Below are positions 57,573 to 64,000 of a stretch of 64,000 nucleotides of DNA, piece after piece. A program made the position numbers and the translations under genes. The notes beneath the pieces are model-generated. The model saw nothing but the letters and a program-made list of their open reading frames with translations, was not told the DNA's origin and did no database searches. This stretch comes from Laetmonice hystrix (Eukaryota), in contig OZ249436.1 of the NCBI GenBank assembly GCA_965235115.1, forward strand, positions 28,646,001 through 28,710,000. The letters are read 5' to 3'. The stretch's first letter is position 1. The number at the start of each line of letters is the position of its first letter.

Positions 57573-57809
57573 TGTAACGGGCCGGGGGGACAAATGACAT
57601 GACACTTCCTTTAGCCTCGTTGTCACTTTAATGCCTGTCACCGTGTGTCACAATACCACCGTGCCACTATGCCACTACCCGGTATGCCACTACCCGGTAT
57701 GCCACGTCAACTGAAACAGGAGTTGACCCACAACCTTACTGGAGTTACTCGACAATTAAAACCGAGGCTAAAGGAAGTGTCATGTCATTTGTCCCCCCGG
57801 CCCGTTACA
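57573..57809. mobile_element. MITE with TGT...ACA termini
   Basis: About 46-bp perfect TIR TGTAACGGGCCGGGGGGACAAATGACATGACACTTCCTTTAGCCTCG; internal 15-bp tandem duplication ATGCCACTACCCGGT. Confidence 0.85.
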
Positions 57810-59262: not shown

Positions 59263-59812
59263 TTGGCTTAAGATTGTATCTCACAATGCACAAAACCCAA
59301 CAAAATCTGTACTTAATCTGGACAATAAGTCTAACTGACACACACAGTAAGAACGCGTTGCTAGGGGGCGCTTCACAGACCTAGCAACAACAGCGCCACC
59401 ACCGGGCGTCTTGGGAGTTACTTGGAAACGGTCTATTAGGGGGTGATTACGAAACACGTGTGTTGCGTGGCGGGAGACGGAAGGAGGAAATATCAAGGAA
59501 AAAGCGGGATTTTACGTTCTAAAGTACACCTACTGTTGTCCAAAGATACCAAGAAACGGAAGGCATGCCAAATAGGAAAGCCGAAAAGCCAAGGACAAAA
59601 ACAAGCAGGTTTTCCAAGAGGTAACCATAACACAACCCGACGACACCACCAATATGGCCGAGGTTGCTAACGTCAACAATGGCACACCAAACAAGGCAAC
59701 AGGTAGACCTAGATATGATTTACTCTAAGCTGTAAGACCTTACTCAGGACGCAAAGAGACTATCAATCATGTTCGCCGGAAAACATTGAAGTAATGAGAA
59801 TTGAGAACTATA

Positions 59813-60477
59813 CACACTAAAAACAGATTGGTTGAAATAACTACCAATCTCATTGGTTTAGCCTAAATTGGTTAAATTTGCTTAAATCACAACCAATACG
59901 TTGGTTATTGGGTAACCAATCTCATTGATTGAGCCTAAATTGGTTGATTTAACCACCAATTTAGTTACAACCAATATGTTGTGCGATTAACAACCAATGT
60001 GGTTACTGGACAACCGGCACGGTGGTCACATGATGACTCTCACCTGCCCATTTCTTTGTCTATACCCCGAAGTGTCTTATACCTGTGAGAGTCGGCTAAT
60101 GAAACCGTGGGCATAAATGAACAATAATATGAGGAGTCTTTGTTATAGTGAGTAGAGTGTTATGGCCTAATTAAGTAGGATTTGTTGACATTGCTGATGA
60201 AAACACCATCTTTGGATGCTAGAGAACATAATTATTAACTTCTTGGTAAAAGTAGTCGACATTATCATGCAGAGTAGCATCTTAGGTTACAGACGTTTGA
60301 ATTTTCTTCGAATGGACCTGTCTGAAATCATCAGGCCATGCGAATCTAAACTAAAAAAGCCAGATATTTGTTTCTCGTTTATCATAATTGTATGAGATCG
60401 ATTGGACACATCCATGCAGAAGATTGGTTGATTTTAACCAGGATCCTGGTTGTTTTAACCAATTTGTTTTTAAAGTG
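59813..60477. mobile_element. CAC...GTG (EnSpm/CACTA-like) MITE inserted in LINE ORF1
   Basis: Imperfect TIR CAC(AC/TT)TAAAAACA.ATTGGTT; many internal AACCAAT/ATTGGTT repeats. Confidence 0.7.
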
Positions 60478-61066
60478 AGGCTGGAAAGCGACATTGAAGA
60501 CACACGTGTCAGTTTACTGGACGAACTCACAAACAAGTTAACCATGGAAAGGGCGAACAATGTTAAAATCGTGAATGAGCTACAGGAAGCAAACAAAAAA
60601 ATTCTCCAGCTAGAGACATATAGCAGAAAACATAACCTTGTTATTGAAGGCCTGTCCGAAAATCGGGGGGAAAACACCAAGCGACTCGTCCTACAACTAA
60701 TACGAGAGAAGCTAGAATTGCCCATTGAAAGTACAGAAGTGGACAAGTGCGACAGGTATGGGAGTAAGTAGTCAAGCCGACCACGTCCAATACTAGCTAG
60801 ATTCGTAAGAATAACCTGTAAGACTGCGGGACACAACCACTAAGATATATATAAATGAGGATTTACCCGCCCAAATCAAAATGGAGAGAGCGGCGCTAAG
60901 ATCAGTAGAGCTCTACGTATGCGAGGCACATAGAGCCCCCATCTCTGCAAAGGTTGTTGTTGACATGTTACACCTCAATAACCAAACCTACAAGTATGAA
61001 GACCTTGAACTATTGCCACCGAAATTTTTACTAGCTGCTGCCAGAACCCCCAAAGTGTCAGAGAAT

Positions 61067-61478
61067 CATGTAGGATTTGCCTCAGAACACTCCCCCTTAA
61101 GTAATTTCTATCCATGTGACATTATAATTGACGGCCGTAAGTGGAATTCAACCGAACAGTATTTTCAAAGTAAGAAAGCTGAAAAGGCACAAAGTGAAAA
61201 AAAAATCAAACACTTGGAGAACCAAATCAAAATAACATCAACATCAGAGTGGCCAAGAATCGAGGCGAGGGTCATGGGTGACGCTAACAATGCCAAGTTT
61301 TCACAGCACAGAGAACTTTTGCATAACCGGCGACCGCACTATGGTCGAGGCTACTCGAGATTGGAAGTGGGGCGGTGCATGCAGTCTATGGTCAACTGAA
61401 CTCAAAACACTGTGCTTCAAAGGTCAAAACAAACACGGCAAAATCCTAATGGATCTTAGGCGCCAGATGAAAGACTAA
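61067..61478 (+). pseudogene. NADAR (YbiA-like) domain at the C-terminus of LINE ORF1, frameshifted near 61320
   Basis: F..HSPLSNFYPC..IDG..WNSTEQYFQSKKA..W..VM..ANNAKFSQHREL / TGDRTMVEATRDWKWG..GQNKHGKILMDLR: the full series of NADAR motifs in order. Confidence 0.88.
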
Positions 61479-61592
61479 AACTTTTTCGTTAATTCCACCC
61501 TCTCCCGTCCAATCGCATGTAATTTTGATTAGGCATGACTACCAACGTATTATTTACGGTTCACCTCGGCCTATGCCTTGTCTTAGTGATGC

Positions 61593-62094
61593 CACTGGGT
61601 AAGGTCAAATCTAAAAGTTAAATGGGTGTTAACGCTAGGTATTAAGAAAGTGTTCTATAAATCGGAAATTTGACCTCGTCCTGGGTGTTTGCTTAACACT
61701 GAGTTAACACTGTCTCAACAACGTGTTAACACCTAAAACACACCTTGGAAACACCTAGATAACTCAGGTGTCTCATTAATCTCAGTAAGGTCCCAGGTGT
61801 CTTTGGAATACCATAGAAAACCTATACCTAAAGTGTTAACCGCCTGTGGGTTAACACCTGAGACAGGTCAAAACTCAGAGTCAAGCTTATTCCTTATGCC
61901 ACTGGTAGGAGTGGCGACCAGGTGTGGCTGATGTGTCAGGAAAGTGTTACCTGAGTTTTTCAAAGTATTAACAAGGTGTTGTCAAAATGTTAACTGGAGC
62001 CTAGTGTTAAAGGTCCAGGTTAACACTTTTTCCTGAGATAACACCTGGATAATCCAGGCATATAGTTAACTCTCATATTTGACCTCACCCACTG
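61593..62094. mobile_element. MITE in the LINE ORF1-ORF2 spacer
   Basis: Imperfect TIR CA(C/G)TGGGT(A/G)AGGTCAAAT; internal GTTAACAC/GTGTTAAC repeats. Confidence 0.7.
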
Positions 62095-62799
62095 TATTAG
62101 CTTGTGACCAGTGGAAAACATCTTTTGTGTCTTTGACATGTGTTTCTATTAGATATATTGTAAATGCCTGTTGGTTTACGCATGAGTGTCGGGATAAATG
62201 CAAATATACATTTATATGTATGTACATACCACCGCTGCTCAACTATGAACTCACATGATATCGGGTGTACTTTCCCATATGCATCACTCGAGGACGATGA
62301 CCTCAGAGAACTCATGACTGTTAATTCTACTATTAACAACATATCACCGGAGACTGAACTAGCTGAACTAGCCACAGGTGATCTGAATGACCTTTTTCAA
62401 GATGTCGATCCTGAGATTATTTCCCAAAGAATACCCCCACTAAAGAAGCCCAGTATGTTACTGAAACCATATTTAGATCTAAAATGCAAAATTTCTCCAA
62501 ACAGAGCAATACACCATCCATTATATACATGTACATGAATACGCGAAGTCTCACAAAACATATAGATAAAATTGAACTTTTATTTCTTAATGAAGACTTC
62601 AAACCTATGTTCTTATGCTTTTGCATTAGGTAAATGATCAGAATTAGCAGCTTGTTCGCGGAATTTTTTTGCACGGGAAGTGGTTTGTCTTTCACTCGTA
62701 ACCAATCAGAAGACGTAATTTGATCACGTGCGTTTGTTTACCGGCCAAGCATGTGTTTTTGCCTCACTAAATCAAATGTTTCATCAATTCTTTGGATGG

Positions 62800-63190
62800 G
62801 TACAAACTGCGGTGACTTAACTGCATTTAAACCTCGGTAGTCTATGTCTAATCCTGTGACTTGCCATCCGCCTTTGCTATCAGAAAGGATGGCGAGGCCC
62901 ATGCACCTGATGTACATGGCTCTAATACACCAAGATCAATTTGTTCCTGGGCCGGTTTGTCTAATTTATCCCTCATTTTGGGAGACAAGCAATATGGAAG
63001 TTTATGGTTTGTGGGAACCACTGGAACTGTCTCAATTTCATGTTCAACCAAATCAGTGCATCCCAGTCTCCCATCTGGTCTCAAAAAGGCGTCCGAATTT
63101 TGTGCTGAAATATCTTGTAAAGCTTTCGTTTGTTCTGGTGTTAGGTTAGCTTTTGATAGATCAACCTGAGGTATATGTGAGGAATGCTCT
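62800..63190 (-). pseudogene. Ty3/Gypsy pol fragment (pre-RT linker and RT N-terminus)
   Basis: LTPEQ..L..N.DAF....LGCTDLVEHEIET....LPY.LSP......LGVLEPC.S.WASP.FLIAK.DG. Confidence 0.85.
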
Positions 63191-64000
63191 GTCTGATGTA
63201 TGCTAAATATTAGTCCATGGGCCAAGGGTTGAAACCCTCCCCCCCCCCGGGGGATTTTTGCAGACTACCATTTTTAGATACCCTGTGATATGCCATTCAA
63301 GAATCTGCTTGTCTGCACGAAAACTGTTGGTGGGTGAAGGCACTAGAGCAGATCAAAGTCGAAGTGGACATGCACATTTCACACGGCCAATTACAGGGTA
63401 GGGGAATAGTCGGGTAGCCAACCCAGGTAACCCGGAAATTTTTAGACCCGCAAGAGATTATGATTGATTTGTGTCCCTATAGGCTCTGTGAAGATTTTCA
63501 GCTTTGTTGGCCGAAGTTGGCTGTTGAGGAATTTTTTTTATAAGCTAATTTGCATAAATTAGCATAATTAATAACAAATCGTCATAAGCTCAGGTAACTT
63601 GAAAACCATTTGGCCTAGAATCATATGTAATAGCACTTTTCCATACAATATCAACACGGGGAATCCATTTGTGACATTTGTTTTGTGAATTAAGGTCAAG
63701 ATCAAGGTCAAATATCAAGGTCAAGGCCAAAAATGGCAAAAAAAACTGGGGTTTCCAGGACAGTTGGCCTAAAATCACATTTAATGGAGTGTTTCCTTAC
63801 AATATAGAGGCAGGCAATCCAATTATGGCATACGTCTTGTGATTCGACATTAAAGTCAAGGTCAAATGTCAAGGTCAAGGCCACAAGTGGCACAAATAGT
63901 CGGTTCGAAGTCCTTCTTTCCTGTAGTATCAGGGACATTTCAGCAGGAAACAAGCTCAAATTACGGACTACATGACTGGGGGCGGGGTGTGGGTGGGACT

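What the first reader, a model, noticed from the sequence alone, without database searches (positions are those of the whole stretch)
59654..62630. LINE retrotransposon whose ORF1 carries a NADAR (DNA ADP-ribosyl/N-glycohydrolase) domain
Seen: a LINE ORF1 (coiled coil, LE.YSR..NL.I.GL.E, RPRPIL.RF, YINEDLP) runs into a complete NADAR motif series. The stretch from YINEDLP to AKFSQHREL is one open frame, and the rest (TG...VEA..D..WG..GQN..G.ILM.LR) follows one frameshift. An APE-type ORF2 start comes next. Established: NADAR/YbiA proteins are N-glycosidases; some act as antitoxins that remove ADP-ribose from guanine in DNA (DarT1-NADAR), and the family also occurs in phages and eukaryotic viruses. 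LINE ORF1s are known to capture accessory domains such as esterase and PHD. Inference: the retrotransposon RNP may carry an enzyme that erases host ADP-ribosylation of its RNA/cDNA or of TPRT intermediates, a counter-defence against PARP-type or pierisin/CARP-like ADP-ribosyltransferases. I know of no description of NADAR as LINE cargo but cannot confirm novelty. This copy is dead (MITE insertion, stop, frameshifts).
Basis: partly seen in the sequence, partly recalled or inferred. Interest (0 to 1): 0.85.

Follow-up and report, generated by a model that had tools for sequence, protein, structure and literature searches.

The report
LINE coat protein with NADAR enzyme
This is a dead copy of a jumping gene whose RNA-coating protein ends in an enzyme domain that elsewhere strips ADP-ribose from DNA and RNA bases; dozens of live relatives in the same genome keep that domain and trade it between unrelated lineages, although a 2025 paper already noted the fusion briefly in oyster elements.

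Summary
The window has a decayed LINE with an L1-type ORF1 (coiled coil, RRM, CTD) ending in a YbiA-type NADAR. It is not a one-off. The genome has 741 NADAR candidates. Fetched loci gave 52 families, many with intact ORFs and recent copies, under purifying selection. The residues on the catalytic side are nearly invariant, but the contacts for the adenosine half of ADP-ribose are mostly lost.

The ORF1-NADAR module sits on CR1/L2-group LINEs (the window's kind) and L1/Tx1 LINEs, and has been swapped between them (AU p=2e-45). A Gypsy-type pol also carries NADAR. Other ORF1s carry an IMPACT domain in the same position.

Best reading: an active N-glycosidase carried on the element's ribonucleoprotein that removes base-linked ADP-ribose or a related adduct from its RNA or cDNA. 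No host writer enzyme was found.

NADAR in LINE ORF1 is already in print for oyster Tx1 elements (PMC12477816). The scan also saw it before (e1-7275890, e1-7880514). New here: the scale, the superfamily range, the swapping and the altered pocket.

The parts
59435..59564 (+). 5' end and 5' UTR of the LINE
   Evidence: Homology of nine other copies begins at 59426-59440 and of a tenth at 59467; four 5' junctions shown
59565..59810 (+). ORF1 N-terminal disordered part and start of the coiled coil (frameshifted); second Met at 59654
   Evidence: Sequence resembles the intact sister L031 start MPSRKSE...MADVANVN; continuous in the uninterrupted copy L018
59811..60477 (.). MITE-like insertion 1 in ORF1, with imperfect inverted ends; shared by the 98%-identical copies
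   Evidence: 548 candidates, 40 scored, 55 matches in the genome; absent from L018
60478..61063 (+). ORF1 coiled-coil end, RRM, CTD and linker (type II, L1-like); stop at 60769-60771, 26-nt deletion after 60815, compensating +4/-1 shift at 60909-60939
   Evidence: tblastn 52-55% to intact L031 ORF1; copy alignment; L031 model matches human L1 ORF1p 2YKO at E 2e-7
61064..61478 (+). NADAR (YbiA-type) domain, the C-terminus of ORF1; net 36-nt loss after 61203, 11-nt deletion after 61325; stop at 61476-61478
   Evidence: Pfam PF08719; 2B3W and 8BAU; lesions
61598..62089 (.). MITE-like insertion 2 in the inter-ORF spacer, 5-bp target duplication (61593-61597, 62090-62094); seen only in this copy
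   Evidence: Inverted arms; empty site in L077 and L078
62245..62621 (+). ORF2 start (DPE/DPD-type leader, start of the APE endonuclease), frameshifted and truncated
   Evidence: 85% nt identity to L076, whose 750-aa ORF has APE and RT
62624..63211 (-). Gypsy-type RT fragment joined to the truncated LINE; the same junction is in L077 and L078
   Evidence: 34% identity to L103 pol, E 2e-15; shared junction

Best explanation
The window holds a dead member of a large, active set of CR1/L2-group LINEs whose ORF1p is coiled coil-RRM-CTD-NADAR. SHOWN: the architecture, purifying selection on the domain, its catalytic residues, and its exchange between lineages. INFERRED: ORF1p trimers coat the element's own RNA, as L1 ORF1p does (established, recalled), so many NADAR copies travel with the RNA to the insertion site. 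Each acts as a ribosyl N-glycosidase. It removes ADP-ribose, or a closely related phosphoribosyl adduct, from guanine or cytidine bases of the RNA template or new single-stranded cDNA. Such adducts would block translation or reverse transcription. The loss of the adenosine-side contacts is read as relaxed or shifted specificity, with the RRM-CTD supplying the binding. The adduct is most plausibly written by a host ADP-ribosyltransferase, which was not identified.
For: In-frame fusion in intact ORF1s followed by APE-RT ORF2. Residues equivalent to 8BAU, in 52 families: E43 52/52, K50 K or R 49/52, W89 52/52, E125 E 47/52 (H 4), D130 48/52, W133 51/52. In 147 database ORF1 domains: E43 147, E125 145. 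Synonymous sites saturated (pS 0.70-1.01) with pN 0.15-0.34 in the 32 closest of 1176 family pairs; dN/dS 0.09-0.13 in the 3 estimable pairs; NADAR more conserved than RRM-CTD in 869 of 1176 pairs. Model pLDDT 87.5 matches 8BAU, 2B3W and L1 ORF1p. All tested NADAR subtypes remove guanosine-ADPr from DNA (PMC11125620) and RNA (PMC11833690); a sponge NADAR removes cytidine-ADPr (PMC12945103). Phage NADAR AdfN is a proven counter-defence (PMC11825919 abstract). RNA viruses of invertebrates carry NADAR in their polyproteins (PMC9503650 passages). NADAR also occurs in a Gypsy-type pol here and in Ectocarpus (PMC12477816).
Against: No activity measured. Adenosine-side contacts of 8BAU are lost: R79 is R in 3/52 genome families and 6/147 database ORF1 domains, against 92/104 stand-alone proteins; Y84 is aromatic in 4/52, 22/147 and 101/104. 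No Scabin-like or DarT gene was found (controls silent, introns not handled). In vitro guanosine-ADPr hydrolysis is general to NADARs and does not predict the in vivo target (PMC11125620). Some ORF1s do without NADAR: 4 of 20 control loci carry IMPACT instead. Earlier scan notes describe ORF1 NADAR-fold domains with the catalytic residues replaced (e1-7350017/18, untested here).
Confidence: 0.45

Rival explanations
1. Active N-glycosidase on a substrate other than nucleic-acid-linked ADP-ribose: a phosphoribosyl adduct without the adenosine, a damaged or reactive ribonucleotide, or a soluble NAD-derived signal or RNA-repair by-product near the particle.
For: Residues for the distal ribose and phosphate are invariant while R79, Y84 and partly R93 drift. 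YbiA cleaves phosphoribosyl riboflavin intermediates (PMC11543638 passages). Soluble ADPr derivatives are proposed substrates for phage NADARs (PMC9503650 passages).
Against: E. coli YbiA also lacks the Y84 aromatic (alignment) and still removes guanosine-ADPr (PMC11125620). Fusion to an RNA-coating protein points to a polymer substrate (inference). Animals do not make riboflavin (recalled).
Confidence: 0.25
2. Non-catalytic module: NADAR adds an RNA- or protein-binding surface to ORF1p, for particle assembly, localisation or processing, as suggested for the NADAR repeats of nematode SNA-3.
For: Net basic charge, mean +3.5 against +1.3 for stand-alone proteins, with wide spread. The same slot can hold IMPACT. 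SNA-3 role in trans-splicing (PMC11125620 introduction). Degenerate versions noted elsewhere (e1-7350017, untested).
Against: Both active-site glutamates and the Lys/Trp/Asp set are kept across families only about 39% identical. The four His substitutions match the residue used by active phage NADARs (PMC11543638).
Confidence: 0.17
3. NADAR removes N-linked ADP-ribose from proteins (ORF1p, ORF2p) placed by host PARP-type enzymes, in the role macrodomains play in RNA viruses.
For: Macro and NADAR are largely mutually exclusive in animal RNA viruses (PMC9503650 passage).
Against: The passages I read report no NADAR activity on protein. NADARs are inactive on PARP14- or TRPT1-type phosphate-end ADPr (PMC11833690).
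Confidence: 0.1
4. Neutral passenger or one-off chimera.
For: The window's own family is dead, and its 98%-identical copies share the same lesions.
Against: 52 families, purifying selection, and 146 of the top 150 database hits with the same two-domain order.
Confidence: 0.03

Closest known systems
NADAR in ORF1 of Tx1 LINEs of Crassostrea gigas (Repbase), noted in PMC12477816 (passage and Fig. S2 legend; the figure itself not seen)
   Same: YbiA-family NADAR inside a LINE ORF1; 7 of the 52 families here also have L1/Tx1-type ORF2
   Different: The window's element and 39 of 52 families are CR1/L2-type. The passages read give no selection test, residue analysis, scale or ORF1 exchange.
[quoted passage not shown]
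   Same: A Gypsy-type pol in this genome (L103, L104) has NADAR ahead of RT
   Different: Here it lies between protease and RT, has His for the second Glu, and falls among the LINE domains in the tree without support. The algal ones hit bacterial proteins.
Type II LINE ORF1p (human L1 ORF1p, 2YKO; Tnp22 ORF1 of the L2 and CR1 lineages, PMC4120745)
   Same: Coiled coil-RRM-CTD fold; ORF1 exchange between lineages is described there
   Different: An extra enzyme domain at the C-terminus. The paper's Table 1 lists PHD, RRM, CCHC, Tnp22 and esterase but no NADAR. The exchange here crosses the Jockey/L1 superfamily line.
YbiA-subfamily NADARs: Phytophthora NADAR 8BAU, E. coli YbiA 2B3W
   Same: Fold, and the E43, K50, W89, E125, D130, W133 equivalents
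   Different: R79 and Y84 are mostly lost; fused to ORF1 rather than free-standing
DarG1 antitoxin and phage AdfN/gp30.3 (PMC11543638, PMC11825919)
   Same: Works like: a mobile element carrying an eraser
   Different: DarG1 has Asp and phage NADARs His at the E125 position, whereas 47 of 52 here have Glu; no linked toxin

Membership tests
NADAR superfamily | Profile match above the Pfam PF08719 cut-off | tested here: met
   Window N-part 37.3 bits against cut-off 35.1; intact sister 107 bits
NADAR superfamily | YbiA fold | tested here: met
   Predicted model of the intact sister; Foldseek 8BAU E 2.7e-10, 2B3W E 9.1e-10
YbiA subfamily | Glu in the last strand (E125 of 8BAU), not Asp or His | tested here: met
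   E 47, H 4, K 1 of 52 families; the window copy has VEAT
DarG1/BC4488 antitoxin NADAR | Asp at that position and a linked DarT1 gene | tested here: not met
   No Asp in 52 families; no DarT match in the genome, control silent
ADP-ribose-binding NADAR (8BAU type) | Distal-ribose and phosphate contacts E43, K50, W89, E125, D130, W133 | tested here: met
   47-52 of 52 each
ADP-ribose-binding NADAR (8BAU type) | Adenosine-side contacts R79 and Y84 | tested here: not met
   R 3/52 and aromatic 4/52, against 92/104 and 101/104 in stand-alone proteins
ADP-ribose-binding NADAR (8BAU type) | Hydrolysis of base-linked ADP-ribose | not testable with these tools
   Needs an assay
Type II LINE ORF1 | Coiled coil, one RRM, CTD | tested here: met
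   Secondary structure and Foldseek match to 2YKO/2YKP; sequence E 0.007
Type II LINE ORF1 | Trimer that coats its own RNA | not tested
   Recalled for human L1; no complex job was run
Jockey superfamily, CR1/L2 group | APE-RT ORF2 of about 950-1100 aa without a C-terminal zinc knuckle; RT apart from L1/Tx1 | tested here: met
   RT tree split at SH-aLRT 100. The group name rests on recalled RT motifs, not on reference sequences.
Jockey superfamily, CR1/L2 group | Clade (L2, Crack, Daphne, Kiri, CR1) by reference RT phylogeny | not testable with these tools
   No Repbase or RTclass1 references held
L1/Tx1 LINE (for the window's element) | ORF2 of about 1250 aa with zf-RVT and L1-type RT motifs | tested here: not met
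   The sister family L031 lacks them; L068 has them

The most novel reading that the evidence does not exclude
The C-terminus of type II ORF1p is an exchangeable counter-defence slot (NADAR, or IMPACT, with an esterase-like ORF beside it in some families). Whole ORF1 modules move between LINE superfamilies because an undescribed invertebrate anti-transposon pathway ribosylates bases of retroelement RNA or cDNA. The transposon NADARs, with their remodelled adenosine pocket, would be a separate enzyme class tuned to that mark.
Probability: 0.3. Interest if true: 0.85.

Novelty: new variant of a known kind. Interest (0 to 1): 0.55.

Why it matters
The physiological substrate of animal NADARs is unknown (PMC11125620 discussion), and no base-ADP-ribosylation defence against transposons appeared in my searches. 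An eraser kept by dozens of active LINE families, shared across two superfamilies and also present in a Gypsy-type pol, predicts a writer or a lesion that limits retrotransposition. It also supplies natural test pairs: families with nearly the same ORF2 but different ORF1 (L050/L067), and ORF1s with NADAR versus IMPACT tails. It adds an ORF1 subtype not listed in the Jockey-superfamily survey (PMC4120745, Table 1), and shows ORF1 exchange across the L1/Jockey divide.

Tried and rejected
Searches that gave nothing:
- The broken window frame against longer proteins: none among 591 candidates.
- Host writers: no Scabin-like or DarT match. Controls were silent in both, so absence is not shown.
- Host range: 1 of 10 clusters carried names in each of two look-ups, both Haliotis multi-NADAR proteins without an ORF1 core. 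The Atlas gives Annelida as commonest for two clusters, on 3 and 1 members with a known phylum.
- No LTR pair in L103 or L104, so 'Gypsy-type' rests on domain order and RT likeness.
- The extra ORF is esterase-like below the Pfam cut-off in L085 and L119, with no hit in L105.
- The NADAR tree is unrooted: 53 of 60 sampled stand-alone proteins form one group (SH-aLRT 94). Donor and direction cannot be read, and the Gypsy domain is unplaced.
- De Souza and Aravind 2012 was not held and may bear on priority.
- Literature searches for NADAR+retrotransposon, NADAR+LINE+ORF1, DUF1768+transposon, YbiA+non-LTR retrotransposon and UPF0029+retrotransposon found only PMC12477816 as relevant. Repbase Reports and subscription journals are not covered.

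Rejected: riboflavin metabolism (animals lack the pathway, recalled); one-off chimera; Tx1 identity of the window's element; chance adjacency of ORF1 and ORF2 (second copies with other flanks confirm the units).
Full report
OBSERVATION. Pfam NADAR matches the frame 60815-61396 above its cut-off (profile 8-107, E 4e-9) and the shifted frame 61236-61475 below it (profile 111-162, E 2.5e-5). YbiA 2B3W and Phytophthora NADAR 8BAU are the PDB hits. The copy is more broken than described. It has a stop at 60769, a 26-nt deletion after 60815, a compensating +4/-1 shift at 60909-60939, a net 36-nt loss after 61203 and an 11-nt deletion after 61325. It also has two MITE-like insertions, and ORF2 is cut at about 62621 against a Gypsy-type fragment. 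The 5' end is near 59435. A DNA search of the 627-Mb genome gave 40 matches. Four other copies are 98% identical and share the first MITE; the one aligned in detail, L002, also shares the lesions. Two share the Gypsy junction and a downstream minisatellite. A dead derivative was therefore multiplied after it broke. No intact member of this family was found. The nearest intact sister, L030/L031 (64% nt), has one 436-aa ORF1 and a 1052-aa APE-RT frame.

ARCHITECTURE. The AlphaFold model of the sister ORF1 (34-row alignment, pLDDT 87.5, pTM 0.72) shows a disordered N-terminus, a long helix, an RRM, a CTD and NADAR. Foldseek finds 8BAU (E 2.7e-10), 2B3W (9.1e-10) and human L1 ORF1p (1.8e-7). This is a type II ORF1 (PMC4120745, parts 1-2 of 6 read) with an added C-terminal enzyme domain.

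SCALE. The sister ORF1 gave 97 scored matches of 957 candidates, 81 of them without an internal stop. Pfam NADAR gave 741 candidates; the 150 scored all passed the cut-off. The fetched loci L031-L122 were picked for diversity, not at random. Among them, 81 frames held a near-complete NADAR and collapsed to 52 families at under 90% identity: 39 with CR1/L2-type RT, 7 L1/Tx1-type, 1 Gypsy-type and 5 untyped. The RT type names rest on recalled motifs, ORF2 length and zf-RVT; no reference set was available. Second copies 98-100% identical over 5-7 kb, with different flanks and poly(A) or short-repeat tails, show whole and recently active elements. As a control I searched with a NADAR-less ORF1 and fetched 20 loci not on the earlier lists: 14 had NADAR, 4 an IMPACT-like tail and 2 were truncated. 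Pfam UPF0029 was confirmed on the two tested. Outside this genome, a profile search found 3,070 clusters at E<=1e-30, a count that includes single-domain proteins. Of the best 150, 146 have the ORF1 core followed by NADAR. A few may come from this species, and their hosts are mostly unnamed.

SELECTION. In the 32 closest of 1176 family pairs, synonymous sites are saturated (pS 0.70-1.01) while pN is 0.15-0.34. The three estimable pairs give dN/dS 0.09-0.13. Mean identity is 38.7% for NADAR and 35.4% for RRM-CTD. Pooled within-family differences, which are not independent, give pN/pS 0.24.

ACTIVE SITE. Numbering follows 8BAU (PMC11543638 passages; alignments). In 52 families: E43 52, K50 K/R 49, W89 52, E125 E 47/H 4/K 1, D130 48, W133 51. 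The 147 database ORF1 domains agree: E43 147, E125 145. The adenosine side differs. R79 is Arg in 3/52 and 6/147, against 92/104 stand-alone NADARs; the Y84 aromatic is present in 4/52, 22/147 and 101/104. The 104 are the 120 proteins listed less 14 with an ORF1 core and 2 too short; some may still be LINE fragments. E. coli YbiA also lacks the aromatic yet removes guanosine-ADPr (PMC11125620, parts 1-3 read), so the change lowers but does not exclude ADP-ribose as substrate.

EXCHANGE. Forty families had both ORF1 and a readable RT; 9 of 49 were left out for lack of one. In the RT tree the 5 Tx1-type elements form one side of a branch (SH-aLRT 100; the tool warned of long branches meeting). 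In the ORF1 tree they sit in three places in all 200 bootstrap trees, and holding them together is rejected (AU p 2.1e-45). There are two direct cases. L110 (CR1/L2-type, second copy 99.8%) and L112 (Tx1-type, two more copies) share 64% nt identity over ORF1 and nothing in ORF2. L050 and L067 share 94.6% over 3,285 bp of ORF2 and nothing detectable by blastn in ORF1, and each is confirmed by a second copy. Two Gypsy-type copies (96.6% over 8 kb) carry NADAR between protease and RT; no LTR pair was seen. An unrooted tree of 171 domains (45 of 147 database and 60 of 104 stand-alone rows sampled; multi-repeat proteins left out) separates 53 stand-alone proteins from the transposon domains at SH-aLRT 94, but gives no donor.

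MECHANISM. Shown: a conserved domain with an intact catalytic set on a protein of the type that coats element RNA. Inferred: it removes a base-linked ribosyl adduct from that RNA or the cDNA. NADARs reverse guanosine-ADPr on RNA but not phosphate-end or 2'-OH ADPr (PMC11833690 passages), and some, including a sponge enzyme, reverse cytidine-ADPr (PMC12945103 abstract and section 2.5). Phage AdfN is a proven counter-defence (PMC11825919 abstract), and invertebrate RNA viruses carry NADAR (PMC9503650 passages, which do not mention transposons). This fits a base-modifying writer and argues against the PARP-at-the-nick idea. No Scabin-like or DarT gene was found, with silent controls. Odds: base-adduct eraser 0.45, other N-glycoside substrate 0.25, non-catalytic 0.17, protein ADPr 0.10, passenger 0.03.

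PRIOR ART. PMC12477816 (three passages, the Fig. S2 legend and Table S1 rows read; the figure itself not seen) reports YbiA-family NADAR in Ectocarpus Gypsy pol and in ORF1 of several oyster Tx1 families, and suggests RNA processing. Five searches found nothing else relevant. De Souza and Aravind 2012 was not held. Earlier scan notes, read after my analysis, saw the fusion in another genome and in this one, degenerate versions elsewhere, and the IMPACT tail.

VERDICT. Real, conserved and widespread. Known in outline, new in superfamily range, exchange and pocket. New variant of a known kind; interest 0.55.

Noticed in passing
L134, L135, L137, L139 (G000:C3:6744600, C8:21681000, C3:6561700, C18:11042300): Type II ORF1 ends in an IMPACT/YigZ (UPF0029) domain in the position NADAR takes elsewhere; followed by a PHD-led ORF2 start in at least three of them. 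Pfam E about 1e-24 on L135 and L137; 25 UPF0029 matches in the genome; no paper found.
   Followed up: partly
L103 2815-7794 + and L104 1755-6701 -: Gypsy-type pol with NADAR between protease and RT, His in place of the second Glu; no LTR pair detected in 9.5 kb.
   Followed up: partly
L085 7014-7676 -, L086 2245-3021 +, L105 2480-3175 +, L119 4473-5198 -: A third ORF between ORF1 and ORF2 with SGNH-esterase-like motifs (DSRG...DGxHP), in both Tx1-type and CR1/L2-type elements; Pfam GDSL below cut-off in two of three tested.
   Followed up: partly
window 59435-63211 with L077, L078, L082: The dead LINE piece, the Gypsy fragment and a downstream 72-bp-period minisatellite recur together at 96-98% identity, which suggests a composite non-autonomous unit or a segmental duplication.
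   Followed up: partly
P0005, P0129 (Haliotis rufescens); P0010, P0099 (unnamed): Proteins with 3-7 tandem NADAR domains and no ORF1 core score high against the LINE profile; many repeats have lost catalytic residues. Possibly host genes derived from transposon domains.
   Followed up: no
L056, L070, L083 families: His replaces the second catalytic Glu, as in phage NADARs.
   Followed up: partly
L048 2034-5339 -: ORF2 begins with a PHD-like finger (Pfam E 0.005).
   Followed up: no
window 57573-57809: Inverted repeat with 56-nt arms, 93% complementary, probably another MITE.
   Followed up: no
window 63607-63896: Two 136-nt copies spaced 154 nt apart, in an element inserted after 63211.
   Followed up: no
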